A DNA stretch of 64,000 nucleotides, from NCBI GenBank assembly GCA_001661245.1, contig KV454012.1:1724418-1788417 (forward strand), given 5' to 3'. Below the pieces are notes generated by a model, which made no database searches, had not been told where the DNA came from, and saw only the letters and a list, made by a program, of their open reading frames with translations. Both the position numbers and the translations under genes were made by a program. Below are positions 3,397 through 53,967 of this stretch, piece after piece. Source of the stretch: Pachysolen tannophilus NRRL Y-2460 (lineage: Eukaryota). How positions within the stretch are numbered: the stretch's first letter is position 1; each line of letters starts with the position of its first letter.

Positions 3397-4107
3397 TTTT
3401 TTATAATATCTAAGTCCACTGGTGAAACTGTGAAACTTCAATCAACCGATCAACCAAAATTGTAAATCTATAGAATTCAATTTAATATATATATATATTT
3501 ATATATATATATATTGATTGTATTAAGACTTTCTTTCCTTATAAAAAAAATTTCTTTGTTGATGATTTTCAAAATGGTTTCAGATTCTGTGCACGACCTT
3601 GTTTTTGTTTAATTTTCAATCACTATCTTAAACGGAAGGGAAATGATACCGGAGAATTTAGTAGATTACAGAATTTAAATCACAATGGTATAAGCTATTT
3701 TAAAACTGGATTGACAATATGATAAATCTATTAAATTCTAGATAAATCGTCAGAGCTAAATAAAAAAAAAAAAAAATTCGAAATGCAACTATTATGACAA
3801 AGAAATATTAAATTAAATTAAAAAAAAAAAAAAAAAAAATTGAATCATTATCAATAATCACTACATGTACATCAAATACTTTCAACTTTAAGAAAATAGT
3901 AATAGTAAATTGGGAAACAGAAATCAGAGTATACTGATTTTAAGTTTGTTTTTTTTTTTCGTTTTATTTTTTTTTTTTTTTGGATTTGTATTTTTTGTTT
4001 TCTTTGAAGTTTGAATTTTTCTCTTTTTTCTCTTTTTTTTTTGGGGGTACTTTTTTATTAAAATCTAATGGAAAAATAGTGGAATAGATTTGAAATCTAT
4101 TTCGGTT

Positions 4108-11277: not shown

Positions 11278-11820
11278 CTTATCCAATCAATCCCCCATAT
11301 ATCAGATTATTATATCTATAGGATATCTATAGATAATCTTGTATAATAAATAAATATATCATGAATCTCAATTTTAATTGGCCTATATTGTCATGCTTCT
11401 TCGTGATCTTTTACAAAAGCCCTAAATTTTCTGTTTTTCTTTTGTTAAAAGAAAAATAAGAAAAAAAAACGTTGTTTATTATTTTTAATAATATAAATTT
11501 TATTATAATATTAAATTATTATAATATTATTATTGATAGAAGAGCATAAAGAAAAAGAGTTAAGGCGGTTAATTCAATTCTGATATAGTAATCAATTGTC
11601 TCTCTTTATCTTTTTTTATTTTAAATTTAAAAATTTTTATTTTGCTTGTTTGTTTGTTTGTTTGTCCAGTTAATTGGTGAGAATTAGGATTTAAAATTTG
11701 TATTAGCGGGAAGAAAGAAAAGATATAATATATATATATATATATATATTAAAATATATATGTATGTATGTGTATATATCTATATATATATATATTGTAT
11801 ACTATTGAGAAGTTATAAGT

Positions 11821-14800
11821 ATGGATGTCAACGGTGTCAATCAAATAATTGGAGCTTTGGGAATAGTTCATTCTCCAACTTCATCTAATGTGGAGCGCCG
11901 TCAAGCACAAGATGTATGTATTTTTACATGTATATATATATATATATATATGAATGATTATTGGTTTTTATTTATTAGTTTTGCACCAAGAATACGAATT
12001 ACTAACATGTTTGATAAAATATTTTTTTATTTTTTTATAGTTTTTGGAGAGAATTAAACAACAACAGGAGTCTCCTTATTGGGGGTATCAATTGGCTCTC
12101 CCAGATAATAATAATGATTATATTGTAAAACATTTTGGATTAAGTTTATTACAATCATCGATTTCTAATCACTATGATGATTTTGATTTGAATAAGCAAA
12201 TCACAGTGAGAAATTGGATCATTGAGTTGAGTAATAAATTATTGGGGAAAGATCCTCATTATATGAAAGAAAAATTGGCCTTTTTATGGGTGGATTTGGC
12301 CAAGAGATCATGGGGGACCTTATTATATAAACAAATCTCAGATACTAATAATGATATGAGTGGATCAGAAAATGGAAATAACAACGCTAGTAATGATAAT
12401 GATAATAATAGTTCGAGAGCGTTGTCAAATGAAGATTTATTGGAAAGTTGGAAAGATATGGATAAAGATTTATGGCAATTATGGAATCTAAATGCTTGTA
12501 CACGAGAATTGACATTTATCATTTTTAGAACATTGTTTGAAGATATATATATTTTAGAAGATCCAATTGCTATAATGAGACTGAAGGAATTAAGTTCATT
12601 ATGCCCAGAAATAGTCACTTCATCCAAAATTTTAAGTTTAAAATATGAACCAAATGAACAATTATCATTATTCAGAGCTTCTGATGAAGGTTGGTTAATA
12701 ACATGGTCAAATTTATTACAAGAATGTTTAAATAATTTAAATTCTATAAAGGATAAAGATAATGCAGAATATAAAACTTCAGAAAATTTTGTCATCAAAA
12801 TCTTACAAACTTTGAAAACATGTTTACATTGGATTTTACCTATAGCAATAAGAGAAGCACATATTTTGGCAAGATTGACGCAATGTTTTATGTTTTCAAG
12901 AAATGTTACAATAAGAATTTTAGCAACAGAATCTTTACATCTGTTGTTTACAAGATCTTTTTCTGATCAAGAAGATTTTTCAGAAATTGTTGGTGCAATT
13001 TTTACAAAAGATGGTATCAATATGCTATCACAAGGTTATCATTCAATACAATTGGATCCGGATGACATTGATGACCAATTATATTCGTTATTGAAAAAAA
13101 TGGTTGAAATGATCTTAGGGCTAACTGAATACTTGAATACTAATACAGGTAAGGTACGTGCTTTTGAACTTGCCCCAACTTCCGATATAAGAGGTTATTT
13201 GAATTTGGTTTTGGAAACAACAAATAATGAATCCTTAATAGTAAGCGGATTATCTTTACAATTTTGGTCTTCTGTCTTGAGGATTGATCAATTGGCAAGT
13301 AAACCAGAATATCAGGAGTTATTACCTAAATTATTGGAAGTTGCTTCAAATAGATTGATTAATTACGAAGACTTCAATGATGAATTACCAGCTAAAAAAT
13401 ACCTTGAAGTAGATTTTGAAGAACAATCCGATATCTCTGTTTTTTTGGCAAATTATAGAAAATTGATGGATGATGTTGTTAGAATCACGGTATGTCAGAA
13501 ACCAAAAGATGGATTGAATTGGTTAGAACTGAGATTAAATCAATTTTACTGTTCACCCTTAGGTCAAGAGAATATAGCCAATAATCATTTGACTTATAAA
13601 GGTGATGGAGCTGAATGTTACATATATGGATATTCTCAATTTATTATTATAGAAGCCTGTATTAGAGGTATATCTAGATGGCATATTTGGTATGATGATA
13701 AGCACGAAGACAAACAGCAGAAGGCTGAATATTTAAATACGCTTGTTGAGTCCTTGTGTGAAAAATTGTTAATGTTGCAAATTAAAGATCCCTTATTGTT
13801 AAGAAAACAAGTTCAAACATTGGTGCAATTCTCTCCATTATTGAAAGATTTTTCAAATAATTTGATGTTCAGGGTCTTGGAGAAAGTTATATTATCTTGC
13901 ACATATGAATATCCTGAAAATTCAACAGATGAAGAAAGAGAAAATATTAGAGACTTGAGAACTAGTTGCGGAACAGAATTAAATAGATTGGCATATTTGA
14001 TGCCTGAATCTTTGAAAGTCATTTTAAATGACTTAGAGGTTGCTATAAGTAATATTTTATCCTCTAACAAAGTGACTGATCATGAAGCCGTAGCTTTTAA
14101 GTCGTTTTTATTGGTTGTATCACAAAGATCATCAATCGATAATAAAGTTGAGAGATTTAGCAAGATTGTTGATCCAGAGTTGCTGGCATGGTCTGATCCT
14201 ACTACTGAAAAGGGGTTATTAGAACTTCCTTGGTTTATGGAAAGATTGGGTATTGTGAAAATTGCCGAATATTTTCAAAGTAGAGGTATAACATCAACCA
14301 CAAATTTGTTAGATGCTGAGATGGATGATACCGGAAGGAATTTGAAAAACGAGTTAAAGAAACATTGGTCCTCTGTTTTCCCAATTAGAGCCACTAGGAT
14401 ATTTATCCAATACAGCATCGAGAAATTGCCCCACGATTCTGAAGAATACCAAAACTTGTTGAAATTATGGAAACCGAGAATTCAACCAATATTACCACAT
14501 ATTCTTCAATTGATTCATCAAATTCAGTCTTACCATGATCCTAACAATTGGCAAGATTTACCAGTTGAAGTACAAAGTTTCGTTAAATATAGTTGTATGG
14601 AAAGATTTTGGCAACAAGGTGTTTCAATTCAGTCTAAGGAAACTTTTATGGAGGAAAATGTTAAAGCAATGCATACTTTAAGGGATTTTGCTGATAGTGT
14701 TGGCCACATTGTTAGGTATACTAGAGAGTATTCTTATTTAACTATTGGTTCGATTTCAGAGTTGGAAGAAACTTTGTATGAAGTTCCGAACATGGCAACT

Positions 14801-35636: not shown

Positions 35637-36075
35637 CAAAATTTCCTAATTCGGTAATTTTGCAGCACCGCGACCCTTACACATTTTTTCAAGTTCGGCG
35701 GACCATAGGCGGAAACTGGGCTAAAACTTGGCGAAAGATTCGCCAATTTAAAACACACAAGTCCCTGTAAATCAAACACTTTTTAAGAGTTCCATTTAAA
35801 ACTATTTTGTATGATAAAAAATGAGGCCCTCGCGGTGCCAAAAAATTACCTAATTAGGAAATTTGTTTTTTTTTTTCAAAAATTTTTCAAAAAAAAAAAA
35901 TTTTTGTTTTTTTTTACAGTGAGAAAAAACAGTTAACAAAAGTATTTTAATAATAATAAATAATAATTTTAGAATTATAAAGTAGTAATTGTAGTAAAAA
36001 GTTATTTTATTTTTTTTTTTTACTATATCGATACAATTAAAGTAATTTGAATTTGAATCAATCTATAGTTGTAAT

Positions 36076-36597
36076 ATGTCAGGACTACCGCGGGACTTTC
36101 AAATTCCAACTTTACCAATTCCTGGTGAAAGTGGCAATAATGGGAATAATAATAATAATAATAATAATAATTTTGATAATTCTATACAATTTGAACAACT
36201 GCAACAATTACAACAAAATTCTTCACAACAATTAAAGACAAAAGAAGGACTGGAATATTATTTTGATCAGTGTTATCATTATTGTTCTCATCATCCATAT
36301 GTTACTGCAATAGGAGTTACTACTTCTCTTTATTTAATATCTGGTTTTTTCAAAAAACCTCAACCTGGTATTAATGGTCGAGCTTTTTATAAAAATGGAT
36401 TTGATCCAAAAATGAATGCATCAGAAGCTTTAAGAATCTTGGAGTTAAGAGAAACAAACTTGACAAAGAAGAAGTTGAAAGAAACACATAGAAGAATCAT
36501 GTTATTGAATCATCCAGATAAAGGTGGATCTCCATTTTTAGCTACAAAGATAAATGAAGCAAAAGATTTCTTGGAAAAAAGAGGTGGGTTAAAATGA
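36076..36597 (+). CDS. PAM18: Mitochondrial import motor J-protein Pam18
   Basis: LPIPG..YFDQ..HP N-terminus, TM segment, J domain NHPDKGGSPFLATKINEAKDFL. Confidence 0.95.
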   Translation: MSGLPRDFQIPTLPIPGESGNNGNNNNNNNNNFDNSIQFEQLQQLQQNSSQQLKTKEGLEYYFDQCYHYCSHHPYVTAIGVTTSLYLISGFFKKPQPGINGRAFYKNGFDPKMNASEALRILELRETNLTKKKLKETHRRIMLLNHPDKGGSPFLATKINEAKDFLEKRGGLK

Positions 36598-36937
36598 AAG
36601 GTTTTTGNTTTTTTTTGTATTTGTATATATAAATCTATGTCGATAATTGTTGAATGAATATCTAATCTTTAGTTACTTTATCTTGTCTTTATCATCGTTA
36701 TTGTTAGTTTTCATTTTTTGTAAAATTTGTTTTTGAAAAAAGTGAAAAATTTTGATGGACGGTCAAAACTTTTTCAACGCGTAGTAAATTGAAAAAAGTA
36801 AAAAATAAAATAATAATTTATAAATATAATTTATATATATATATATAATTTTATAATTTTATTAATTTATTCAATTTCAATTTGAAATCATTGTATATCT
36901 TTTATATCTATAGCGTTGAGAGTAGAGTTATTGGATA

Positions 36938-39770: not shown

Positions 39771-41468
39771 ATGTCAATAATCAAAAAATTGTTGAATTTG
39801 AAACCAGCGGAAACCACAATATTTTTTGTGATTTTAGCGATTAGGATATTTAATGCATTAACCATAAGGACTTTTTTCCAACCGGATGAGTATTATCAAG
39901 CATTAGAACCAGCTTATGCTGTTGTTTTCCACACGGATGGATTCACATGGGAATGGAGGCAAAAATTGAGGAGTTTTAATTATCCTCTATTGTTTGCTTT
40001 AGGTTATAAGGTATTAGAAATGTTAGGATTGAGTGATAACGATTTATTAATAATTGATGTACCAAAAGTTTTACAAAGTTTTATTTCTTCCCTTGGTGAA
40101 TTATACTTATACAAGTTTATTTTTAAAATATCTAATTCGGTAGAGTTGTCAAATATCACACTTTTCTTAAGTCTTGTATCATCGTTTAATTGGTTTTTCA
40201 TAACAAGAACTTTTTCAAATAATGTAGAAATGGTACTTACGATAGTTGGAATTTATTACTGGCCTATTGAAAGTTTGTCAAGTTCTATAGAGATTAAAAG
40301 ATTGAATAATATTTCAAATTATATTTCTGCTATTATTTTTGCTACAATGGCGTGTTTAGTGAGACCAACTAATGTAATAGTATGGGGGTTTCTTGGAATA
40401 AATTTATGTACAAGATTGGATGGATTGGTTTATAAACTTAAGGTTTTGTTAGTGACATTATTAACGGCAAGCATTGTTATAATGATAAATGTGGTTATAG
40501 ATTATTGGTTTTATTCAACTTTGACATTTCCAATATTAAATTTCATTGAGTTCAATTTTATAAAATCTTTATCACAGTTTTATGGTGTCAATTCATTAGA
40601 TTTTTACCTAACTCAACTGATACCGGTTTTATCAAATACTTACTTACCATGCTTTATCTGGGGGATATACTCTGTCATTATTAATAAGAAGAATGGAAGC
40701 TTGGATAAAAAGGATAAAAAATTATATGACATCTTGTTTAACATATTAATATTATGCATATTTGACATTTTTGTATTTTCATTAATTAAACATAAAGAAT
40801 TCAGGTTTATATATCCTTTAAATCCATTTTTCCTAATTTTTGTTTCATTAGGATTTCTAAGGATGATTAAAATGTTAAAGTCTGCAATTTTCAGATACCT
40901 ATTTATTTACATCATAATACTGGTTAATTTTTCACTTGGATTTTATTTAACTCGTTATCATGAGAGTGGAGTTATTGGAATAACCAGTGTATTGAAACAA
41001 CAACTTCAACAGATGAAACTCACCAACGAACCTTGTTCTATTGGATTTCTAATGCCTTGCCATTCAACACCGTATTATTCATATTTAAATGTAGGTAACA
41101 CCAGTGACATAGATATTTGGTCTTTAACATGTGAACCACCTTTAGATATTGAAAAGTCATCAGATTTGGCTACATATAAAGATGAATCAGATTGGTTTTA
41201 CCATAATCCAATGTTATTCTTAAAAAGAAATTTTCCTAATGAGGTTGTATATGATAATGATAATGATAATGATAATGACAAAATGGCCATTTACAAACAT
41301 GATTGGCCAAATTTTTTAGTGATATTTGAAGATTTAGAGAAAGAGATCATTGATTATTTACAAAAGAATGGCTACGAGGAAATTAATAGATTGTTTAATA
41401 CGAGAGCCCACTGGGACAGTAGGCGTAGGGGTGATGTTATTCTTTATGCCAAAAGAGAATTAAAATAG
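39771..41468 (+). CDS. GPI10: GPI mannosyltransferase III (PIG-B)
   Basis: RTFFQPDEYYQALEP, TWEW, HKEFRFIYP, LMPCHSTP, CEPP. Confidence 0.95.
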   Translation: MSIIKKLLNLKPAETTIFFVILAIRIFNALTIRTFFQPDEYYQALEPAYAVVFHTDGFTWEWRQKLRSFNYPLLFALGYKVLEMLGLSDNDLLIIDVPKVLQSFISSLGELYLYKFIFKISNSVELSNITLFLSLVSSFNWFFITRTFSNNVEMVLTIVGIYYWPIESLSSSIEIKRLNNISNYISAIIFATMACLVRPTNVIVWGFLGINLCTRLDGLVYKLKVLLVTLLTASIVIMINVVIDYWFYSTLTFPILNFIEFNFIKSLSQFYGVNSLDFYLTQLIPVLSNTYLPCFIWGIYSVIINKKNGSLDKKDKKLYDILFNILILCIFDIFVFSLIKHKEFRFIYPLNPFFLIFVSLGFLRMIKMLKSAIFRYLFIYIIILVNFSLGFYLTRYHESGVIGITSVLKQQLQQMKLTNEPCSIGFLMPCHSTPYYSYLNVGNTSDIDIWSLTCEPPLDIEKSSDLATYKDESDWFYHNPMLFLKRNFPNEVVYDNDNDNDNDKMAIYKHDWPNFLVIFEDLEKEIIDYLQKNGYEEINRLFNTRAHWDSRRRGDVILYAKRELK

Positions 41469-41486
41469 TATTAAAAATTTAAAAAA

Positions 41487-42653
41487 CTATACCTCCATAT
41501 CCCATTTTGATTTATTTTCAACACTTTTCTCAATTTCCAATTCTTTTGATTTCCTGCTTTCTATTATGTTATTTAAATTGTTTATAGATTCTTTTCTTGC
41601 TATGAAAAAAGTATTTAGTTCTGAGTTTGCATTTGCATTTGCATTTGCATCTCCATTGTTAGTGTTAGGCGAAGATTTGAGTTGGGTCACTATTTTTAAA
41701 GCTTTATCATAATCTTTTAATTTCATATAACAATCAAAGATCCCTACTAAACAACTAATATCTCCTAATTCAACACCGAGTTTAAACCATTCCATTGCTT
41801 TGTTAATATTTTGGAAATAATTTAATTCCAAGAACCCTAAACTTTTGAAACTTTCTTTAAAACCTTGAGATGCAGACATTTCAAAATAATATCTAGACAA
41901 TTTAGGATCATCTTCATGAATTACACCAAGGTAATAATAAGCATGTGATATTTTGTCTAAAGTGGAAAATTTTATTGATTTTTGAAGATAATGTTCAGCA
42001 AGATTCAAATTTGAAAGCTTAAAATTCAAGATCCCTAATGTTTGGAAAACTTGTGAGGCAAGATAAGTATTATTTTCAATCTTTAAGAAATCTTGATAAA
42101 AATCTATAGCTTTATTATAATCATTATTTTTTTCATATTCATAATCACCACTTAATTTTAAAGTTAATGGGTGTTTTAACAAAAGTAAATCTCTTATTAA
42201 TTTCTTTGCCCGATCCACTTCACCAGTTTCCCATTCATCAGGTTTCTTGATACAATCAAAAGCCAAGATCGCAACAGCGTTATTATCACCCAATTCAGCA
42301 GCATATTCAATTAATGAATTTTCTAATAAAATTAAATGTTTATTCTTTGTATGTGTCTTATATCGTATTTCTTTTAAAATATTTCTAAAAATCATTAAAT
42401 CTGAACCTTTAACTTTCTTCAGATTCAAAATATTTAATATTGAAGGTTCCTTTTCATATATGCTTTGTAAAATTGGTAAATATTTTTGATAATTCAATCT
42501 TGAATCGAAATCAAATAATAATTTTTGTAAATGTTTCTTTGCTGGTAATATCTCCAACAACGGTGGAGGATTATTTAAAATATTAGTTGAATAAGGAGAT
42601 CTTAGAAAAGTTATTCTAACTTTGGGATTTGTCACAAGATACCTTCTTAGCAT
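41487..42653 (-). CDS. MSS2: Mitochondrial Sel1/TPR-like Cox2 export factor Mss2
   Basis: LLFDFDSRL, LLENSLIEYAAELGDNNAVAILAF, LGFLELNYF..WFKLG. Confidence 0.85.
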   Translation of the reverse strand: MLRRYLVTNPKVRITFLRSPYSTNILNNPPPLLEILPAKKHLQKLLFDFDSRLNYQKYLPILQSIYEKEPSILNILNLKKVKGSDLMIFRNILKEIRYKTHTKNKHLILLENSLIEYAAELGDNNAVAILAFDCIKKPDEWETGEVDRAKKLIRDLLLLKHPLTLKLSGDYEYEKNNDYNKAIDFYQDFLKIENNTYLASQVFQTLGILNFKLSNLNLAEHYLQKSIKFSTLDKISHAYYYLGVIHEDDPKLSRYYFEMSASQGFKESFKSLGFLELNYFQNINKAMEWFKLGVELGDISCLVGIFDCYMKLKDYDKALKIVTQLKSSPNTNNGDANANANANSELNTFFIARKESINNLNNIIESRKSKELEIEKSVENKSKWDMEV

Positions 42654-42674
42654 TTCTTTATCAAATGTTAAATT

Positions 42675-42713
<39 letters not shown>

Positions 42714-42836
42714 GTATAATGTAGTAGATTTTTCATATATATATTGAGAATACTAAAAAAAAAAGCAAAAGAGAAATTATATAAATATAAAAATATTTAA
42801 GATAATGTGGGATTCATACAATTAATTGAGATATCG

Positions 42837-43142
42837 ATGGATCAGTCAAATATTCACCCCATTGAACTAACAGTTCAATCAATAATAGAATCTCCTTTAG
42901 AGAATTTAAATATTCAGTTACAACGAGTTACAGATAGTCAATTTTTATTAATAAGTATTTTGAAAAATTATGAATTAAAATTGAAAAAATATAATGATTT
43001 ACTTTCTACAAATAATGATACTAAAGAAATGATTAAAAATTATGAAAAGAGAATTAATGATATTAAGTTAAAATTATTGGAAATAAGTTTGAAATTGAAA
43101 TCAGTTAATGAATCAATTGAAAAAAATTTGTCAAGTAAATAA
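42837..43142 (+). CDS. SNN1: BLOC-1 subunit Snn1 (snapin-like)
   Basis: IHPIELTVQSII..SQFLLISIL coiled coil, about 100 aa. Confidence 0.75.
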   Translation: MDQSNIHPIELTVQSIIESPLENLNIQLQRVTDSQFLLISILKNYELKLKKYNDLLSTNNDTKEMIKNYEKRINDIKLKLLEISLKLKSVNESIEKNLSSK

Positions 43143-43224
43143 GTAATAAAGTAATTTTATATTATAGTTTTTTTTTTTAAAAAAGAAGAAAGAAAAAAAA
43201 AAATGAAGTAAAATTTAATAGTTT

Positions 43225-44286
43225 TTAAAAAAATTTTAGTATGTAGAAAGGATAAGCTCCATGTTTTAAATGATAAATGTTTACCAACACAGCATATGAA
43301 ATAAATATTGTAAATACCATTATAACAACTGTTAAAAATTTAATTTTTAAATTTTTAATTTGATTTACTTTATTTAATAAGAAACTTATTGAAACAAATA
43401 AAATTGCATAAATTCCAGAAATAATTTGAGTTTCTACACCTAATTGCAGTTGATGACCAGAAACAAAATATGTAAATGAACCATCATTATTTGTCTTTGT
43501 ATATGGTGTCATTCTTATTTGATTAAACATATAACCACATGTAAATAATATTATAGTTATTATTGAAATACTTTGATAAATTGCTTTTGAATAAACAATT
43601 TTATTAAATTTTGTGGAAAATTTATAAATTATAATAATTATTGATATAATTATTATTAATCTTGTTATAATTTTAGAATAATCTAAAGGTTGAATAATTT
43701 GAAATAATTTTGGAGGAATTTTAATTGGAGTATTTGAAATTAACCAATTTGCTAATGCAGTAGTTTGATCACCAGTTGTAAAAGCATATTCATCAAAATT
43801 ATTATGAAGATTATCATTATTATCTTTTAAATTTGAATTAGTTGGATGAAAATAAAATAATTTTGGAACATTATTTAAACTTAATTTTGTGAAAAATTCC
43901 ATATTATCACTAAAATCAGCAATTGCGAAAAAAATTTTATCACCACCATTTTTATTTAATTCTAAACGTTCTTGTTCATTTAATTTTTTCAAATTTTCCA
44001 GAAATGAATTAGCTAATATTGTATAAATTGGTTGAAATTCATTACATAAAGCACATCCAACTCTTGGAGAAGAAGCTGTTAAATAAACAGCAATATGATA
44101 ATCTTTTCTTTCATTATTTAAAATTTTATTATAATTTTTATCAGTTATCTTAATTATATTATTCTTACTCTTGGAAATTATTTTATCTAAATCTTTTGAT
44201 GTATAAGCACAAACAGATGAACATAGTATTAATAGAATCGTTAAGATTCTAATAATTGAAAATTGACCTTGACAAAAATTTTTCAT
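43225..44286 (-). CDS. OST3: Oligosaccharyltransferase Ost3/Ost6-family subunit
   Basis: Signal peptide, thioredoxin-like CALC, four TM segments, GYMFNQIR, VETQI, YPF. Confidence 0.9.
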   Translation of the reverse strand: MKNFCQGQFSIIRILTILLILCSSVCAYTSKDLDKIISKSKNNIIKITDKNYNKILNNERKDYHIAVYLTASSPRVGCALCNEFQPIYTILANSFLENLKKLNEQERLELNKNGGDKIFFAIADFSDNMEFFTKLSLNNVPKLFYFHPTNSNLKDNNDNLHNNFDEYAFTTGDQTTALANWLISNTPIKIPPKLFQIIQPLDYSKIITRLIIIISIIIIIYKFSTKFNKIVYSKAIYQSISIITIILFTCGYMFNQIRMTPYTKTNNDGSFTYFVSGHQLQLGVETQIISGIYAILFVSISFLLNKVNQIKNLKIKFLTVVIMVFTIFISYAVLVNIYHLKHGAYPFYILKFF

Positions 44287-44693
44287 CTTCTTCAACCAAG
44301 AACCAAAAAAGAAAATAATCTCAATTGATAGATCAATATATATATATATATAGTTAGAGTAAGAGTTTGTTTAGATAGTTTACTTTAAAATCAAAGAAAT
44401 TCAAATGATACGTGTAATGTTAAAACACTATGAAAAACTGGAAACTTTTCACTCACTACCAAATCAACGAACAGATCCAATGAACAAAGATCCAATGAAC
44501 AATGAAAAGATTTAATGAAAATTATCAAATTAATTATCTTTTTTAGTATTTTGTTTTGATTTTATAAATTGTTTCCAATCTTGAGTCTTGAGACTTTTAA
44601 CAGTATTAAACATCTAATTGTAATTTATTATCTTTATACTCTGTCGTAGTAATGAAAAAAAAATTTTAGAGTGTAGAAAAAAAAAAAATAGGA

Positions 44694-44797
44694 CTCCTCA
44701 TCAGGGGCTCGAACCCTGGACATTTCGGTCGACTTCTTTGTCTCGAAATGAAACAATCCTTAAAAGCCGAACGCTCTACCAACTGAGCTAATAAGGA
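44694..44797 (-). tRNA. tRNA-Lys(UUU) with 31-nt intron (44730-44760)
   Basis: TCCTTATTAGCTCAGTTGGTAGAGCGTTCGGCTTTTA[intron]ACCGAAATGTCCAGGGTTCGAGCCCCTGATGAGGAG; 73 nt mature; T-run terminator follows. Confidence 0.97.
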
Positions 44798-45336
44798 TAG
44801 TCCTGCGGAAGGCCCAATTTCAATAGCTGATTTTCTCACTCAGTTTTCTCATTCAGTTTTGTCAATCAGCTATGTCTAAACGAAAAGAAAGAAGAGACCC
44901 TCCTACCAAAACTAATAAATTATAAAAAATTATTTAAAATCAACCAATTAATCAGTACAATTCAATTGTCATCTTTAAGCACAAGGCAAAAACAAAACAA
45001 AACAAAACAAAAACAAAAAAGAATCGAAAACATTTCCTCTTTTTTACATAATTAATTGGTTTCCTTTAACCTCATCGACACTTTTTCTACTTAATTTTTT
45101 CTCTTTTTGGATTTGTTGTGTTTTGCACACACTACCACAATATACGAGGGAAAAAGAAGAAAAGAAAGAAAAATCAGAGCTTTCAGTATATTTTAATACT
45201 TGAACGTGAAAAGAATTAAAAGTTAATACTATAAATTTAGATAAATTGAATAACTGTATTGAATGAATCAATAATTTTATTTATTTTTATTTTTTCTCTC
45301 TATCTCTCTCAACACAGCACAGCACAACACAGTACC

Positions 45337-45368
<32 letters not shown>

Positions 45369-45417
45369 AACTGTTCCTCCTATAATTATCCAATTAATTC
45401 TTATACCTGAATAAAAA

Positions 45418-47367
45418 ATGAACAATTATAATTTGAATGTTAATAATGGTATAAACGTGAATAACGGCATGAATGAAATAAATAGTAAGACCAATCATCC
45501 ATCACCTGTGATACCAGGTGGACCAGTGAATAGATCAGAGGTGATGAATGGGTCACCAGTCAATTTGAATAATAATAATAATAATAATTATAATCGACAA
45601 GGTGGTGGTGCTAATATTGTGAATCAGAATAAAAATATAAGACTTCCTATAAACAATCGTGTTATGGTTGGAAATAGTGTAGGTGGTGGTGTTGGGAGCC
45701 CAGTTAACCAGGTGAATCTTGTGAATCAAGTTAACCAGGTGAATAGAGTAAACACGGGAGGTATTCCAGTGAATGGCGCGGGTATTAATATGAATATGAA
45801 TATGAATATGAGAGGAATGATGCCTAACCAATCTGCGAAATCGCTGTTGTCGCAGCCACAACAGGTACAGCAGCAACAGCAACAGCAACAGCTTTTGAGG
45901 CATCAATTGCAGCAGCAGCTGCAGCAACAACTGCAGGCGCAGCGGCAACAACACCCACAGACTCAGACTCAGACTCAGACACAACAGCAACAGGCGCAAC
46001 AGGCGCAATTGACTCAACAACAAATACAAAAACAAAGACATCAGATATTGTTTCAAAAATTGAAAAATTACAAGTTTTCGGAAACTTCAGAAGAAATTTT
46101 AGCTAAATATGCAAATTTTCAACCATCTTTAGAATTACATATTCATGAAAATTATTTTAGATTTGGTAATCAAGTAGGAATGATCCCAAAAACTTCACCA
46201 TTGATAAAAGAATTATTAGAGTATATAGCACGTGAGCAAATACCTGATTCATTAGTTGAAGTGATCAAAGATGGGGGAATACAATTATACGAAGGTTGTT
46301 GTATAATACAGATATATGATCATAGGCACATGGTAGAAAAAATTGTTACTCAGGATGGTAATAATAACCAACAAGAAGGTGTTAATAATAATAATAATGG
46401 AAATGACATTGATAACCTACCTAAAATAAAAAGAGTTCCAAAAACTTATAGAACTTTATTAAAACCAACTCAATTATCAATTTTTGCTGATTTGTTATAC
46501 CAAATGGATTCACAACAATTTAGATTAAGTGATCATTACATGCTTTTGATAGAAGCAGAGATTCTAACTTTAACAAAGAGAAATGTTGATTTATCTGTAC
46601 CATTAAATCCATTCAAATGTAACGATTATTTACAACCAGAAACACAAAAACCTGTATATGATGCTGAAAAGGATGAGGTAATACATGATTATAGAAAAGA
46701 TTTGAAACCATACCACTTTAAACCATTACATGAAGATATTGTTCATCATAATAAATCAGATTACGAACAATTAATGATGATTTTAAGTGATCATGGTAAT
46801 CATCAGATGGGTGATAATTTATCAAATTCTAGTTCTTCTTCTCAATTTTTAAGATTAAAATTTGTTGAAAATTGGAGACGTAAAAGAGAAAGAATGAAAC
46901 AAGCAGCAATAGCAGCTAATATCCAATATAGACAACAACTGGGAAATGATCCTTCTCAAGGTGGTGTTTCCGGTATGGTTGCTAATACGTCTGCCGGTGT
47001 AGCAGCAAATAATGGATTCAATAATGGACAGTCACAGCAACTGAATGGACAGCAGCAGAGTAACGTCAATGGATTGGGTATGTTTGGATTAACCCAACAA
47101 CAGCGTTATTTAATTCAACAACAAAGGTTAATACAGCAACAACAACAATTACAAATGAGTAATGCTATCAATGGTACGGTAGATAATAATAACATGAGAA
47201 ATAATAATAATTCGAATTCTCAATTACAAAATAATATGGATGGAAGTGGACAATCAATGTCAGGGAAACAGTCAAATTCAAATACCAATCTTCTGAACCT
47301 TAATGGTTCAACAGGTAATAACAATGATAATAACGATGGTAATTCTGGTGCTAATATATATGTATGA
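45418..47367 (+). CDS. SPT20: SAGA subunit Spt20, apparently truncated at an inversion junction
   Basis: Gln/Asn-rich ends; Spt20 domain PSLELHIHENYFRFG..LYEGCCIIQIYDHR..YRTLLKPT; ends abruptly GANIYV* inside a TATATATGTA tract. Confidence 0.9.
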   Translation: MNNYNLNVNNGINVNNGMNEINSKTNHPSPVIPGGPVNRSEVMNGSPVNLNNNNNNNYNRQGGGANIVNQNKNIRLPINNRVMVGNSVGGGVGSPVNQVNLVNQVNQVNRVNTGGIPVNGAGINMNMNMNMRGMMPNQSAKSLLSQPQQVQQQQQQQQLLRHQLQQQLQQQLQAQRQQHPQTQTQTQTQQQQAQQAQLTQQQIQKQRHQILFQKLKNYKFSETSEEILAKYANFQPSLELHIHENYFRFGNQVGMIPKTSPLIKELLEYIAREQIPDSLVEVIKDGGIQLYEGCCIIQIYDHRHMVEKIVTQDGNNNQQEGVNNNNNGNDIDNLPKIKRVPKTYRTLLKPTQLSIFADLLYQMDSQQFRLSDHYMLLIEAEILTLTKRNVDLSVPLNPFKCNDYLQPETQKPVYDAEKDEVIHDYRKDLKPYHFKPLHEDIVHHNKSDYEQLMMILSDHGNHQMGDNLSNSSSSSQFLRLKFVENWRRKRERMKQAAIAANIQYRQQLGNDPSQGGVSGMVANTSAGVAANNGFNNGQSQQLNGQQQSNVNGLGMFGLTQQQRYLIQQQRLIQQQQQLQMSNAINGTVDNNNMRNNNNSNSQLQNNMDGSGQSMSGKQSNSNTNLLNLNGSTGNNNDNNDGNSGANIYV

Positions 47368-47491
47368 GTATATCTATATAAAGAAGCTTTTAAAAAGTAT
47401 TAAATAAAAGATAAGCTATAAATTTTACAAATTAAATAATAATTAATCAATAGAAAAAAAAAAAAAAGAAAAGAAAAATATTTGTAGATAT

Positions 47492-47764
47492 TTAGTTTGT
47501 ATTCTGTGACATGTTGATTCCTCCCATACCTGCCAGCCCAAGATTACCCTGAGAATTAATGGTATTAAGGCCACCAACAGGTGTGGATACAGCAGGTGTA
47601 CTAGCATCGCTTCCTGTCTTACTTTTCTTTTTGTAAGAACCTCTTTTTTCTTTACTGGTGGTTGTTCTTCATTATTAGGTATGGATCCACCAGGGAGAGT
47701 CTTCCCAGAAATTTGATTTTTCTTGGTTGAATTCTTTCTAGGTCTCTTTGTAGTTGTCTTTTTG
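47492..47764 (-). other. Orphaned Spt20-type basic C-terminal coding segment, inverted relative to SPT20
   Basis: - strand just after the DCP1 stop: KKTTTKRPRKNSTKK..PPVKKK / (-1 shift) RGSYKKKSKTGSDASTP..MSQNTN*; resembles the Spt20 tail KRPRKNAKK..PKKKR..SSTP. Confidence 0.8.
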
Positions 47765-47771
47765 ATATATA

Positions 47772-48332
47772 TTATATACTTTGACTCTGATTAAGAATTA
47801 CGTTTAAAATATTAAACATATTTTCTCTATCTGCTTTATCAAAAATCCAAATCCCATATGTTTCATCTTTTAAATTTTTTAAAATTATTAAATCATCATT
47901 TTTTTCAACAATCATATCACTATCTATAACATTTTTATTAGAAAGTAAACCAAGACAAAAATTTTCTGTTTTTATTCTATTTAATATCATTAATCCATAA
48001 GTATAAATTTCATTATTTAAAATATAATTAGGTGACATTTTCAGTTTATCATCAACCAGTTGATTTCTTGAATATATTGAAAGTACACCTTCATATTCCA
48101 ATTTATCCCAATTTTCAGAATCTTGATTAAACTGATATAATACTGAATGTGAAGTATGATATACCAACTGAGTTATCTTAGGATCATATTTACCAATGAC
48201 ATTATAAGTTAAAGCTTTACGGTATACATTCAAAGTCGATTTATCTAACGCTATTTCATCAAGTTGTTGTTCCGTCGATAATGGAGGAGCAGTGGATAAC
48301 GATCCAACAGTTGAATCTTCAGTAGTAGCCAT
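47772..48332 (-). CDS. DCP1: mRNA decapping subunit Dcp1
   Basis: YRKALTYNVIGKYDPKITQL..WDKLEYEGVLSIYSR..YGLMILNR..YGIWI. Confidence 0.95.
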   Translation of the reverse strand: MATTEDSTVGSLSTAPPLSTEQQLDEIALDKSTLNVYRKALTYNVIGKYDPKITQLVYHTSHSVLYQFNQDSENWDKLEYEGVLSIYSRNQLVDDKLKMSPNYILNNEIYTYGLMILNRIKTENFCLGLLSNKNVIDSDMIVEKNDDLIILKNLKDETYGIWIFDKADRENMFNILNVILNQSQSI

Positions 48333-48698
48333 TATTCCCCTTTTACTAATCTCTTTTTAATAAATCATTCAATCAATCTCTTGGTATAATAGAATGTTTT
48401 CACCAATAAATTCATTTAAACTAACTTTTCATTGAGATAGCAAACACTACTAATTTTCTAAAATAGCTTCGTTAATTAATCAACTAATCAACTAATGAGC
48501 TATTGAAAAGAGGACAGTTATAAGGCTTACAATGGTATGATTTTGGTCAATGTTTTGAGTAAAATTTATTTTAAATGTTTGGAGATTGATATTGTATATA
48601 CGGACTTGCCATAAACTTTTAGAAAATGAAATTTGTAAAAGTAAAAAGAAAAGAAGAAAAAAAACACAAATTCATCTTCCAAGTGTTAATTGATATGT

Positions 48699-49283
48699 TC
48701 AAGCTTCCGGAACAACTTTAGAAGCATCAGATACATTGACACTTGTATTATCTGGCTCAACGAAATCCTTAACGACTTTACCATCTTTAACTAACAAAGC
48801 ATATCTTTTACTTCTGTTATTCCCGAAAACAGCCGCACTGTTGAATAAGAGACCTAATTCATTGTTGAACTTACCTTCTGGGTCTGCTAAAAACCTAAAA
48901 GATTCAGCTTCCTTAGGAAATGTCTTTTTCCAAGCCAGAGTAACAAATGGATCGTTAACTGAAATCACAACCAAGTGATCATAACTCTTGGCCTTCAAAT
49001 CTTTCCATGCAGAGATATAACCTGGAATGTGTTTATCGGTACAAGCTGGTGAAAATGCAGCTGGAACACCAACAATTACCGATTTACCAGAACCAAGTTC
49101 TTTTGAAAGGTCAATGCTATCACCTGGAGTAGATTCCTTTAAAGGTACCGATGGGATCTTATCACCTGCCTTAACCATTGCTGGAGAATATGTTCTAAAA
49201 CCTGCTTTACCAATATAACTAGAAGTAAAATAAATTGATTTCAAATTAACTGGTAATTTATTTCTACTTACAATTGAAAACAT
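48699..49283 (-). CDS. Prx5/Ahp1/Pmp20-family peroxiredoxin with presequence-like extension
   Basis: VPAAFSPACTDKHIPGY, SVNDPFV, RSKRYALLV; in-frame ATGs at 49283 and 49178. Confidence 0.92.
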   Translation of the reverse strand: MFSIVSRNKLPVNLKSIYFTSSYIGKAGFRTYSPAMVKAGDKIPSVPLKESTPGDSIDLSKELGSGKSVIVGVPAAFSPACTDKHIPGYISAWKDLKAKSYDHLVVISVNDPFVTLAWKKTFPKEAESFRFLADPEGKFNNELGLLFNSAAVFGNNRSKRYALLVKDGKVVKDFVEPDNTSVNVSDASKVVPEA

Positions 49284-49526
49284 GACCAATTAAACTCTTA
49301 TATATATATATATATATATAGATATTTATAGATATTTATAGATATAGTCAAGGTTCAGTAGTTTTAAAAGAAAAATAGCAAATTTAAATATATTTGGTAA
49401 TTAATAATTTTTTATAATTGCACTTTCCCCTTCTGATTATATAATGTTGCATCAAGTGCATTTAACTATAGAAAAGATGGAATAAATTAAATTCAGGAAA
49501 CTTTTTTTAAATTTAAGAATTGTTTA

Positions 49527-50192
49527 ATGAAAGGTTTTAAAGTGATTAAAGAGGTTTTAAGTTTTAAATGTTATTATTCTGGTATAGTACCTCCTCGTCA
49601 TAAATTAAAACCTTTAACAAATGAACGGAAACAAGAAATATCTTTTGCAAAGAATTGGTTAAAAAAATTAGATACAAATACTATACCTAGAAAATTATTT
49701 GATATTTCCTTTAGTAGAGCATCAGGACCTGGAGGACAAAAAGTTAATAAGACATCATCAAAGGCAATTATTTCATTGGATCAAGTTACATTGGAAGAGC
49801 AATTTCCGAAATTTATACCGCTGATCATTTATGAGCAATTCATAAAATCTGTTGAATTTAAATATTTTAGACCAGTTAATGGTGGAATATTAATTCAATC
49901 TGAAGATTCAAGATCTAGGCAAGAAAATTTAGAAAATTGTTTTAATAAATTTATAACAGAATTGAAAAAAATTATTAAATTTGAACAAGATATTGATTTG
50001 GATATTAAATTGAAATGGGAAAACATTGAAAAAAGGGAAAGATTAAATAAAATTAAGATAAAAGAAAATAGAAAAGTTAAAAAGGAAAATAGGAAAAAAT
50101 TTATATATAAAATAATTTTAAAATATTATCATCATTATAATCACTTATTGCTGTATCCAATTTTTAAAATTTCTATTACTATCATGACTTAA
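49527..50192 (+). CDS. PTH4: Mitochondrial peptidyl-tRNA hydrolase Pth4/ICT1 (true stop probably near 50110)
   Basis: FSRASGPGGQKVNKTSSKA GGQ motif and basic tail; the extension overlapping PSF3 is suspect. Confidence 0.9.
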   Translation: MKGFKVIKEVLSFKCYYSGIVPPRHKLKPLTNERKQEISFAKNWLKKLDTNTIPRKLFDISFSRASGPGGQKVNKTSSKAIISLDQVTLEEQFPKFIPLIIYEQFIKSVEFKYFRPVNGGILIQSEDSRSRQENLENCFNKFITELKKIIKFEQDIDLDIKLKWENIEKRERLNKIKIKENRKVKKENRKKFIYKIILKYYHHYNHLLLYPIFKISITIMT

Positions 50193-50762
50193 TTTAAATA
50201 ATTTTTTTTCAAATTCATCCAATGATAAAATAAAATCATGAGAACCACTTGAATTCCCATTTTTAGAATTTGTAGCAAAATCGTTAATCTCACTAGATCT
50301 ATCTTTTAACATTTCACTTATAACTTCAGCCAATTCTTTATCTTTAAACATAGCACACCATTTAATAGCCAATTTATAATAATATGTGGATATTGAATGT
50401 AAATCTAAAGTTTTACTATTGGTCTTTATGGCATTTATCACTCTATTACTAAAATATTCAGGTTGAACAAGTTCAATAAAAGAATCCTCAGATGTCTCGT
50501 CAATCGGTATTATCGCCAACACTTCAGCAAGCCAAAGAGGTAACTCCAACTTTGAATTCTTTCTTAATGGTTTCCCTGGATTTCCTTCCAAATACCCTAG
50601 TCCAGGTACTGTCATTTGAAATTTACATGGTAATTTCTTAAAATCAAAAAAAAAAAGTAAGTTAGCACAAATAATTATTCCACCGAAACATTTTGATAAT
50701 TTTCTTTTACTCACTTGATTATCAGCTAAAATATCATCTATATCATAGTAACTGCTATTCAT
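50145..50762 (-). CDS. PSF3: GINS subunit Psf3; two exons (50762-50715, 50636-50145)
   Basis: YYDIDDILAD, PGLGYLEGNPG, LELPLWLAEVL; 78-nt intron with GTGAGT, TGCTAAC and AAG. Confidence 0.95.
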   Translation of the reverse strand: MNSSYYDIDDILADNQVSKRKLSKCFGGIIICANLLFFFDFKKLPCKFQMTVPGLGYLEGNPGKPLRKNSKLELPLWLAEVLAIIPIDETSEDSFIELVQPEYFSNRVINAIKTNSKTLDLHSISTYYYKLAIKWCAMFKDKELAEVISEMLKDRSSEINDFATNSKNGNSSGSHDFILSLDEFEKKLFKLSHDSNRNFKNWIQQ

Positions 50763-51082
50763 CTTGTCATTTCTAAATATCTATCTATGTCTTGAATATT
50801 ATTGTAGTTTTAGTCAATTTATATTTGATTTTGCTATATAAGACGCGCCTAAATTGTTGTTATTTTAAATAAACATGAAAAATAGAAAATAGCCCTATTT
50901 TTCACTGTTTTATTATATTTTCACTTTTCTACAATTACTTCTTCGCAAATCAATCCAAATGGCTTACACTTTTCTTATTATATTCTCTATAAACAGAAAA
51001 AGAGGAGAGAAAAGAAATAGAAGGAGACCGAAAGAAAGAAAGTAAGAAAAAAAAAAAAAAAAAAAGAAGAAAAAAAGTCAGT

Positions 51083-51205: not shown

Positions 51206-53574
51206 TTAATTATTATTTTTCAGTTTTGATGAAAATTTTTTCAAATAAGTTTCAGCTTTGTTAAAATGGTCCACTATCGATTTGTCATTAATTAAACCTT
51301 TTGAATCAATCTCTCTCACGAGAGCAGCAACTTCATAGAAAATTCAACACCTTTAAGTAATTCTTCAAAAGGTGAGTTATGTAAATTGTTGAAATTTCCT
51401 AAAAACAAGTTTTTAGTTTTTGTAAGATCTTCGGAATTATTATTATATATTTCCAAGAAATGTAAGGCAAATATACCAACTAAAGTTGAATTGAAAATTC
51501 TATTAAAGGGTAATTGGGAATTTAAAATAAACCAATTTCTATTATTCCATTTAAATTTATCCTTTATATCGTTATTCATCAAGATAGTATATAAATTGGC
51601 TATTAATAATTCATTGATTTGTTCTTGTGATTTGGCAAAGATGGATCTAAATTGTAATAAGGATCTTGAAAATTTGTTCAAATAATTGATTGGTTTGGTT
51701 TGAAAAATTGGACACAATACTAAAATTTTAGAGATTAATATTATTAATTTTGAAATTTCTGGGCCAGCTGAAGATGGTATTTTCAATTCATTATTATTAA
51801 ATGAAATTAAATCATTCAATTTTAAAGTCTTACCAAATTTTCTTAAAAAATTTATAATTAAAAATAAATTTGTTGAGTAAAGAGATTTTGAAATTGTAGG
51901 TAATAATTCACCCCATGTTGTTAATTTGTTATCTTCACCAATATATTTCAAAATATATAAAGATCTCAATAAAGCTGTTGAAATGATTTGATTATTGGAA
52001 GAAAGCTTTTCCTGTAAATCTAAAGTCTTGGAAGAAATTGATTGATTAACGAATTCTTGATTAATCTTATCAAAAAATAATTTTATTTCAAAATCATCAT
52101 GTGAATTGTCAAAATTAACCGTAAAAGATCTTGTCTTAAAATAAACTGGAGGTGAAATTCTATGAGACAATTCAAAAACATCTGGTTTGTTCTCATTAAA
52201 ATATGTTGTTAAATTAATTTTTTTAACTTGATAATATCTGTGCATAAACTGTGTTAAAAGATTTAATGTCTTATTTTTCAACTCTAAAGAATCATCATCA
52301 GTCACTAATTTCAAATATAAAGGTGTTGGAGAACAATCTAAAGGTAATCTTTCAACATAATTTCCATATAATATTGCTTCAACACTTTTAAATTCAACTA
52401 AACCTACAGATTGATAAAAATAATATTCATTCGACAATCTTTGACCAATAAATTCATGAAGATCATTTGGTACTTTGACATCACTTTTGATAGTTTTATC
52501 TACTGCAAACAGTTGAGAAATTTTTTCCAACTCTCCATCAACATCATTTAATAGTTCAATCAGACCATTTTTCTTTAATACTGGCATAAATTTTAATACA
52601 GAACAGCCTTTAAAAAATTTTTCAGATATATTTTGATCCTGTAAAGCCAAAATTGTATTATAAACGGATCCACCACTTATTGTAACAAATTCATGCAACA
52701 TTTGGAAAGTAATCGCAGGAGAAGAGGGGAAAATTTGTAAAGAATCAGGTTGTAAATCATTACCAACAACCATTGAAATATCTAAAAATTGTTTTTCTGT
52801 TAAATTGAATTTGTTTAATATGAAATTTTTATCTAAAAATTTAAATTCTTTATTTTGAAATTCAATACAAAAGATAAATTTTTCACAGTTTTGCGATAAT
52901 AATAAATCTGTTGGACCATAAATAACATCAACAAATTTTCCTCTTAGTAAATAAGTTAATTGAATAAACGATGAATAAGGAGCAACTTGATAATCAATTT
53001 CTCTTTCAACAAAAAATTTTAATAAATCATTTAAAATAGGTCTTGAATCTATTGGACTATTAAATTCTCGGAAAGTCTCCGTTGTAGGCTTTTGTGGAGA
53101 AGATACCGCCGAGCTATGTCTATCCCAAACTTTTTTATGATGCTTCTCCAACAATGATAACTCAGAAGATGCATTTTTACTATCAAACGCCAAAGTATTT
53201 CTTAAACCTTGAAATACAAAAATTGGTTTAATATTCAATTCTTTAAAAATTTTTAAATCCAACTCAATATAATTCAATAAACTCAATGGGAACCCACCAA
53301 TGGCATCCAAGAAAGATTCTTTCTTAAATGTGAGTAACCTCGAAATATAATGATCAACATCGATCCCAATTGTAGAATTCTTCAAAATATCAATAGGATA
53401 ACTACCAACAGAATAATTATCAAAAAGATATGATTCAAGAGTTTTAACTAAATAAAAGAAAAAAAAAAAAGAAAGAACAGTATACTTTGTTAGTTTAAAA
53501 TTCCAATAATTCCAATATTTTACTTCTTCACCTTTAAAACAACTTCAACAACCATCAAATAACTTACTAGGCAT
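51206..53574 (-). CDS. MKT1: Mkt1, XPG/PIN-like post-transcriptional regulator; two exons and a frameshift near the 3' end
   Basis: Exon 1 53574-53568; intron 53567-53448 (GTAAGT, AACTAAC, TAG); gives MPIKTLESYLFD..GSYPIDILKNSTIGIDVDHY. A -1 shift at 51339-51342 extends the frame to TAA at 51206. Confidence 0.9.
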
Positions 53575-53615: not shown

Positions 53616-53967
53616 NNNNNNNNNNNNNNNNNNNNNNNNNNNNNNNNNNNNNNNNNNNNNNNNNNNNNNNNNNNNNNNNNNNNNNNNNNNNNNNNNNNNN
53701 NNNNNNNNNNNNNNNNNNNNNNNNNNNNNNNNNNNNNNNNNNNNNNNNNNNNNNNNNNNNNNNNNNNNNNNNNNNNNNNNNNNNNNNNNNNNNNNNNNNN
53801 NNNNNNNNNNNNNNNNNNNNNNNNNNNNNNNNNNNNNNNNNNNNNNNNNNNNNNNNNNNNNNNNNNNNNNNNNNNNNNNNNNNNNNNNNNNNNNNNNNNN
53901 NNNNNNNNNNNNNNNNNNNNNNNNNNNNNNNNNNNNNNNNNNNNNNNNNNNNNNNNNNNNNNNNNNN
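53616..53967. other. Assembly gap (N run) with duplicated flanks
   Basis: TTCTATCGTTTCTCTAAAAGTTTTTTTTCC+T-run occurs at both 53577 and 53968. Confidence 0.95.

What the first reader, a model, noticed from the sequence alone, without database searches (positions are those of the whole stretch)
47352..47774. ~0.4-kb inversion between convergent SPT20 and DCP1 puts the Spt20 C-terminus on the wrong strand
Seen: SPT20 (+) stops abruptly at GANIYV* in a terminator-like TATATATGTA tract. Just behind the DCP1 stop, the - strand encodes about 90 aa (KKTTTKRPRKNSTKK..PPVKKK/RGSYKKK..DASTP..N*) with no start codon of its own. The segment is bounded by a perfect 10-bp inverted repeat, TAATATATAT (47352-47361) and ATATATATTA (47765-47774). 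Known: Spt20 ends in such a basic KRPRK..KKKR..STP tail. Inference: flipping the segment and removing one duplicated ATAT restores GCT AAT ATC AAA AAG in frame and gives DCP1 back the TATGTA/TATATA 3' signals. The two genes appear to have exchanged 3' ends.
Basis: partly seen in the sequence, partly recalled or inferred. Interest (0 to 1): 0.85.

Follow-up and report, generated by a model that had tools for sequence, protein, structure and literature searches.

The report
Mis-oriented assembly block truncating yeast SPT20
The end of the SPT20 gene really does lie on the wrong strand in this assembly, but contigs built from public sequencing runs of the same organism show the gene intact and collinear, so the "inversion" is most likely an assembly error and not biology.

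Summary
In the window SPT20 (+, 45418-47367) stops at GANIYV*. The conserved Spt20 C-terminal tail lies on the - strand (47764-47492), split by one frameshift. A perfect 10-bp inverted repeat sits at the stated coordinates. The - strand peptide matches the C-termini of the closest Spt20 orthologues (Smith-Waterman z 5.7-9.5, 0 of 300 shuffles, for 7 closest).

The inversion is not supported as biology. In 4 of 4 public runs laid (3 samples, 2 studies; Logan contigs), one contig runs 46900-47354 on + and continues directly with 47764-47484 on the opposite strand. That is the collinear form. It reads in frame (…GAN-KKTTTKRPRK…) and gives a 736-aa Spt20. Three of the 4 runs also carry one extra T in the T6 run at 47644-47649, which removes the frameshift.

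The flipped block is 47355-47764 (410 bp), not repeat to repeat. The 10-bp AT repeat is at chance level (about 795 such pairs in the window). The window is a scaffolded draft (352-N gap) with a second gene broken at an A6 run.

Verdict: a mis-oriented block plus a probable homopolymer error, giving a truncated public gene model. The right junction was not covered by any laid contig.

The parts
45418..47354 (+). SPT20 coding sequence up to the point where the assembly departs from the read-based contigs (codons 1-645 plus 2 nt). It contains the Spt20 SEP domain.
   Evidence: ORF. PF12090 E 2.4e-48. Orthologues. Contigs of 4 of 4 runs match 46900-47354 with 0 other letters.
47355..47764 (.). 410-bp block that lies in the opposite orientation in the window compared with the contigs of public runs.
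   Evidence: joint 47354|47764, 'opposite strands', in X1, X3, X4 and X5 (1 contig each; depth 182, 11.8, 177.8, 112.2; side 255; both 0). The right end is inferred from a simple flip and was not seen.
47492..47764 (-). SPT20 C-terminal tail (about 90 codons plus the TAA stop at 47494-47492), encoded on the - strand in the window. It holds the basic clusters KRPRK and KKKRGSYKKK and the SGKTLPGG motif.
   Evidence: z 5.7-9.5 against the closest orthologues. (stop codon; GC 0.40 against 0.13 in the non-coding part).
47644..47649 (.). T6 run (A6 on the - strand) where the tail changes frame. Contigs of 3 of 4 runs have T7, which keeps the frame.
   Evidence: table 4: T put in behind 47643 in X1, X4 and X5, but not in X3 (depth 11.8); with the extra base the ORF ends at 736 aa, without it at 752 aa.
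47355..47491 (.). Non-coding part of the block (GC 0.13), shared 3' region of the convergent genes. It includes the A-rich tract 47438-47483 where all laid contigs end.
47772..48332 (-). DCP1 coding sequence (186 aa plus stop), apparently complete.
   Evidence: PF06058 E 1.5e-24, profile 2-116 of 117.
47352..47361 (.). Left arm of the 10-bp inverted repeat. It straddles the block boundary and is incidental.
47765..47774 (.). Right arm of the 10-bp inverted repeat. It lies just outside the block and overlaps the DCP1 stop codon. It is incidental.

Best explanation
The organism has an ordinary, intact SPT20 gene of 736 codons that converges on DCP1. About 144 bp of AT-rich 3' sequence lies between the two stop codons. 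In this scaffolded draft assembly a 410-bp block (47355-47764) was placed in the wrong orientation. The block carries the last ~90 codons of SPT20 plus the intergenic 3' region. One base is probably also missing from a 7-base homopolymer inside the block. As a result the SPT20 frame runs into AT-rich 3' sequence and stops at GANIYV*, so the public gene model (649 aa) lacks the conserved basic tail.

Shown: the collinear, in-frame join and the extra base in read-based contigs, and the homology of the tail. Inferred: that the window's orientation is an artefact and not a clone-specific variant, the position of the right junction, and the role of the tail. I read its two basic clusters as a nuclear-import signal or other basic binding region. 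That reading comes from composition only.
For:: in 4 of 4 runs laid (X1 and X4 from sample S1, X3 from S2, X5 from S3; 2 studies) one contig of 2292-2347 nt covers 46900-47354 on one strand and continues without any letters between with 47764-47484 on the other strand. There are 0 other letters. A T is inserted behind 47643 in 3 of 4 runs.

this form is in frame and gives 736 aa. Its tail aligns with the C-termini of the closest orthologues (z 5.7-9.5, 0 of 300 shuffles for P0002-P0008).

orthologues from Komagataella, Wickerhamomyces and Babjeviella end in the same KRPRK...SGKTLPG...KKKRG[ST]YKKK arrangement.

X3, the one run that shares the window's T6, also shows the collinear join.

Signs of draft quality: a 352-N gap at 53616-53967 and a single N at 36608. 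A second conserved gene (Nup53/35-type) is split between two frames at an A6 run, 2189-2194.

The tail still encodes the conserved motifs, with only one frame break. That fits an artefact or a very recent event, not an old inversion.
Against: Only contigs were available, not raw reads. Contigs show what is present and dominant, not that a minor inverted form is absent.

No laid contig covered 47355-47483, 47765-47870 or DCP1, so the right junction of the collinear form was not seen.

The block ends carry no N and no long repeat. The left end lies in ordinary coding sequence, so I cannot say how an assembler produced the flip.

I do not know which reads the window was assembled from. If they came from a clone not among these runs, the flip could be real there.

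T6 is shared by the window and X3, so it could be a true variant of that sample and not a sequencing error.
Confidence: 0.86

Rival explanations
1. A real, very recent 410-bp inversion is fixed in the particular clone from which the window was assembled. It truncates Spt20 and swaps the 3' regions of SPT20 and DCP1. The public runs come from cultures without it.
For: The window shows it with clean, N-free junctions. The tail carries a frame break, as expected for sequence freed from selection. The source reads of the window are unknown to me.
Against: 4 of 4 runs from 3 samples and 2 studies are otherwise letter-identical to the window over 46900-47354 and 47484-47764, and all show the collinear join. 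This includes X3, which shares the window's T6. There is no homology at the block ends that could drive an inversion, since the 10-bp repeat is not the boundary. The tail motifs are fully preserved apart from one homopolymer base.
Confidence: 0.08
2. The segment is invertible. Both orientations coexist in the population (a flip-flop that toggles the Spt20 tail), and the assembly and the contigs each captured one state.
For: Two orientations are on record: the window, and the contigs. Contigs drop minority variants, so coexistence is not excluded.
Against: In each of 4 runs the contig passes the junction unbranched with 255 or more letters on either side, so the collinear form dominates. The flanking inverted repeat is 10 bp of AT sequence at chance frequency and does not coincide with the block ends. 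No recombinase or long inverted repeat is nearby (Pfam map). The flipped state is out of use for both genes.
Confidence: 0.03
3. The - strand peptide is unrelated to Spt20: a chance basic low-complexity frame, or a separate small gene or a 3' exon of DCP1.
For: Each piece alone gives weak BLASTP results (E 0.003 over 18 aa; nothing meaningful). Neither piece matches a Pfam family.
Against: The joined tail aligns with the C-termini of 9 of 27 orthologues with 0 of 300 shuffles reaching the score. The motif order matches. Contigs physically join it in frame to SPT20. It has no start codon and is in a different frame from DCP1.
Confidence: 0.01

Closest known systems
Spt20/Ada5, core subunit of the SAGA coactivator (Pfam PF12090 Spt20 SEP domain family)
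   Same: SEP domain at residues 234-408. Q/N-rich middle. C-terminal basic tail with KRPRK and KKKRG[ST]YKKK clusters, as in orthologues P0002-P0008. Convergent neighbour DCP1, as I recall for S. cerevisiae YOL148C/YOL149W (recalled, not from a call).
   Different: Nothing biological once the block is read in the orientation of the contigs. The window's gene model (P0001, 649 aa) lacks the last ~90 residues.
Mis-oriented short pieces and homopolymer-length errors in scaffolded draft assemblies
   Same: The assembly disagrees with contigs rebuilt from reads in 4 of 4 runs. N gaps are present in the same window. The 1-base difference lies in a T6/T7 run. A second gene is broken at an A6 run.
   Different: There is no N and no long repeat at the two ends of the block, so the way the error arose is not evident.
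Inverted-repeat flip-flop inversions in budding yeasts (mating-type switching by inversion; PMC6692504, of which I saw only the search listing and the start of the abstract; the details are recalled)
   Same: A chromosomal segment between inverted repeats found in two orientations in a yeast.
   Different: As I recall, those systems use inverted repeats of kilobase scale, and both orientations are functional. Here the repeat is 10 bp, at chance level, and not at the block ends. One orientation breaks a conserved gene, and read-based contigs show only the other.

Membership tests
Spt20 (SAGA subunit) | Spt20 SEP domain (PF12090) above Pfam's gathering score | tested here: met
   164.6 bits against a cut-off of 27.1, profile 3-177 of 177.
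Spt20 (SAGA subunit) | Conserved basic C-terminal tail continuous with the rest of the protein | tested here: met
   Not met in the window as assembled. Met in the contigs of 4 of 4 runs. Tail homology.
Dcp1 decapping protein | Dcp1-like EVH1 domain (PF06058), complete | tested here: met
   86.6 bits, profile 2-116 of 117, ORF 47775-48332(-).
Assembly artefact (mis-oriented block) | Sequence rebuilt from reads contradicts the assembly at the junction | tested here: met
   left junction contradicted in 4 of 4 runs (3 samples, 2 studies).
Assembly artefact (mis-oriented block) | Both junctions of the alternative form seen, and no reads for the assembled form | tested here: inconclusive
   no laid contig over 47355-47483 or 47765-47870. 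Only contigs were available, not raw reads.
Inverted-repeat-mediated or site-specific invertible segment | Inverted repeats at the exact ends of the segment, longer or more frequent than chance gives | tested here: not met
   Block ends are 47354|47355 and 47764|47765. The repeat is 10 bp, one of about 795 such pairs in the window.
Inverted-repeat-mediated or site-specific invertible segment | Both orientations present in one population | tested here: inconclusive
   Contigs of 4 runs show one orientation only, but contigs drop minor variants.

The most novel reading that the evidence does not exclude
The culture behind this assembly really carries, fixed or as a subpopulation, a homology-free 410-bp inversion. 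It removes the conserved basic tail of Spt20 and exchanges the 3' regions of SPT20 and DCP1, and it is so recent that the orphaned tail has at most one frame break. This would be a natural test of what the Spt20 tail and the two 3' UTRs are needed for.
Probability: 0.1. Interest if true: 0.45.

Novelty: not a real feature. Interest (0 to 1): 0.08.

Why it matters
As biology it does not matter: SPT20 and DCP1 look ordinary. It matters for curation. The public gene model for Spt20 from this assembly (P0001, 649 aa, the only hit above 54% identity) is truncated by about 87 residues and lacks the family's conserved tail. The same window shows other signs of consensus errors, so frameshifted or truncated genes in this assembly should be checked against reads before they are read as biology.

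Tried and rejected
**Whole genome:** none is held for this window, so I made no search for a second SPT20 copy or for other flipped blocks.

**RNA:** no RNA holder is listed, so there is no evidence on transcripts.

**Parts without contig cover:** 47355-47483, 47765-47870 and 47934-48300 (DCP1). The right junction stays unseen. The 19-23-nt pieces at 47871-47901 are low-complexity matches of other contigs.

**BLASTP of the two - strand pieces taken singly:** the first piece against P0002 gave E 0.003 over 18 aa. The second piece against P0005 gave nothing meaningful, E 2.0. I replaced these with Smith-Waterman alignment with shuffles on the read-through tail.

**Pfam on the two pieces:** 0 families.

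a flip from repeat to repeat with nothing removed stops at 656 aa. A pure flip of 47355-47764 without the extra base runs to 752 aa in the wrong frame after PPVKKK.

**Earlier findings of this scan:** none for this genome.

**Literature on a nuclear localisation signal in the Spt20 tail:** 8 papers hold the three terms. I read passages of one preprint (10.1101/710020), and it says nothing on an Spt20 signal. The import role of the tail is therefore my inference only.

**tRNA scan of 40000-50000:** none found.

Full report
**What is in the window**

The + strand ORF 45418-47367 encodes a 649-aa protein that ends ...GANIYV* in AT-rich sequence. It carries the Spt20 SEP domain (PF12090, E 2.4e-48).

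Convergent with it, the - strand ORF 47775-48332 (stop at 47772-47774) is a complete Dcp1-like protein (PF06058, E 1.5e-24, profile 2-116 of 117).

Between the two stops, the - strand holds a peptide with no start codon, read in two frames:
- KKTTTKRPRKNSTKKNQISGKTLPGGSIPNNEEQPPVKKK, in the 47443-47790 frame.
- RGSYKKKSKTGSDASTP...NTN*, in the 47492-47668 frame, after a frame change in the T6 run at 47644-47649.

TAATATATAT (47352-47361) and ATATATATTA (47765-47774) are perfectly complementary.

**Is the peptide the Spt20 tail?**

A protein search with residues 200-649 of the ORF returned 28 proteins. One is the window's own model (P0001, 649 aa). The next best has 54% identity (P0002). Named hits come from Komagataella phaffii, Wickerhamomyces, Babjeviella and others.

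The sequences of 12 of them show that the closer orthologues end in the same order of motifs: a KRPRK-type cluster, SGKTLPG, then KKKRG[ST]YKKK.

Taken singly, the two - strand pieces give weak statistics. BLASTP gave E 0.003 over 18 aa for the first piece and nothing for the second, and Pfam found no family in either.

I then read the tail through by reference, with X at the frame break, and compared it with the last 130 aa of each of the 27 other proteins:
- 9 gave 0 of 300 shuffles reaching the Smith-Waterman score: P0002-P0008 (z 5.7-9.5), P0012 (z 7.5) and P0019 (z 4.0).
- 4 gave 1-3 of 300.
- 14 were not distinguishable from composition-matched shuffles. Among these are the Saccharomycetaceae proteins, whose tails look similar by eye.

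So the peptide is the Spt20 tail.

**Is the inversion real?**

Five public runs hold the stretch 46400-48700, each with 0.94 of the sampled words. They come from 2 studies. No RNA run is listed. I laid four of them, X1, X3, X4 and X5, on 46900-48300. They represent 3 samples and 2 studies, and all are kept as Logan contigs.

In 4 of 4 runs, one contig of 2292-2347 nt matches 46900-47354 on one strand. It goes straight on, with no letters between, with 47764 down to 47484 on the other strand. The joint 47354|47764 is reported as 'opposite strands', with side 255, both 0 and 0 other letters.

This is the collinear form. The reading frame passes from ...G-A-N into K-K-T-T-T-K-R-P-R-K.

Three of the four runs (X1, X4, X5; depth 112-182) also have one more T behind 47643. 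This turns T6 into T7 and joins PPVKKK to RGSYKKK in frame. X3 (depth 11.8) has T6, like the window. With the extra base the ORF is 736 aa. Without it the ORF runs on in the wrong frame to 752 aa.

All contigs end in the A-rich tract 47438-47483. No laid contig covers 47355-47483, 47765-47870 or DCP1. The right junction of the collinear form was therefore not seen, and its sequence is only the prediction of a simple flip.

**The boundaries and the inverted repeat**

The block that differs in orientation is 47355-47764 (410 bp). A flip from repeat to repeat with nothing removed stops at 656 aa.

The left repeat arm straddles the block end, and the right arm lies wholly outside it. Such repeats are common here. 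There are 16 inverted pairs in 47000-48100, including another perfect 10-mer. The 29.7% GC window holds about 795 perfect 10-mer inverted pairs 50-600 nt apart outside the N run (43866 minus 43071), against a mean of 167 in block shuffles. The repeat is incidental.

**Best explanation**

The gene is intact in the organism. In the assembly a 410-bp block is mis-oriented, and a homopolymer is probably one base short.

Support beyond:
- The window is a scaffolded draft, with a 352-N gap at 53616-53967 and a single N at 36608.
- A second conserved gene is broken in the same way. The Nup53/35-type RRM is split between the - strand frames 2116-3441 (profile 3-38) and 1703-2242 (profile 33-85). The two frames would join if the A6 run at 2189-2194 had one more base (my reading, not checked against reads).
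- X3, the run that shares the window's T6, still has the collinear join.
- The tail keeps all conserved motifs, which speaks against an old inversion.

Against this reading:
- I had contigs only, and contigs do not exclude a minor inverted form.
- The right junction is unseen.
- The block ends carry neither N nor a long repeat, so I cannot say how an assembler made the error.
- I do not know which reads the window was built from.
- T6 could be a true variant of the sample behind X3.

I put the artefact at 0.86, a clone-specific real inversion at 0.08, coexisting orientations at 0.03, and an unrelated peptide at 0.01.

**How the real locus works**

This part is inferred. SPT20 encodes a 736-aa SAGA core subunit with the SEP domain at 234-408, long Q/N-rich stretches, and a basic tail with two lysine/arginine clusters about 30 residues apart. 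From composition alone I read the tail as a nuclear-import signal or another basic binding region. I found no paper that tests this. One search listed 8 papers holding the search terms, and passages of one preprint say nothing on it.

In the collinear form, 144 bp of 13% GC sequence separate the SPT20 and DCP1 stops. This is a usual shared 3' region for convergent yeast genes.

**Comparison with what is known, and novelty**

The proteins are ordinary members of the Spt20 and Dcp1 families. The arrangement fails the tests for an inverted-repeat-driven invertible segment: the repeats are not at the ends and not above chance, and only one orientation appears in the contigs.

The 'inversion' is best filed as not a real feature. 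Its practical value is as a correction. The only model of this protein found in the searched protein collection (P0001) is truncated.

**In passing**

P0001 equals the table-26 translation of 45418-47364 letter for letter. It differs from table 1 at 6 of 6 CTG codons, where it has Ala. The source annotated this organism as reading CTG as alanine.

Noticed in passing
window 45418-47364 (+): The stored protein P0001 is identical to the table-26 translation and has Ala at 6 of 6 CTG codons where the standard code gives Leu. The organism is therefore annotated as a CTG=Ala yeast.
   Followed up: yes
window 1703-3441 (-), A6 run at 2189-2194: A Nup53/35-type nucleoporin gene is split between two frames inside its RRM domain (Pfam profile 3-38 in one frame, 33-85 in the other). 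One more A in the A6 run would join them. It is probably a second homopolymer error, or else a real frameshift. Not checked against reads.
   Followed up: partly
window 53616-53967 and 36608: A 352-N scaffold gap lies directly upstream of the MKT1-like ORF (51319-53544, -), whose 5' end may be missing. There is also a single N at 36608, just after the ORF 36046-36594.
   Followed up: no
window bins 3500-3999 and 11500-11999: Local excess of perfect 10-mer inverted pairs (156 and 136 pairs per 500-nt bin). These may be AT microsatellites or real inverted repeats. Not examined.
   Followed up: no
window 47438-47483: An A-rich tract (an A run followed by GAAAAGAAAAA) at which the contigs of all 4 laid runs end. 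It is a natural break point for assemblers inside the mis-oriented block.
   Followed up: partly
window 41490-50780: Gene map around the finding, from Pfam: TPR protein (41490-42710, -), OST3/OST6 (43228-44370, -), SPT20 (+), DCP1 (-), Redoxin/Ahp1-like (48702-49289, -), RF-1 domain protein (49491-50189, +), GINS Psf3 (50148-50780, -).
   Followed up: partly
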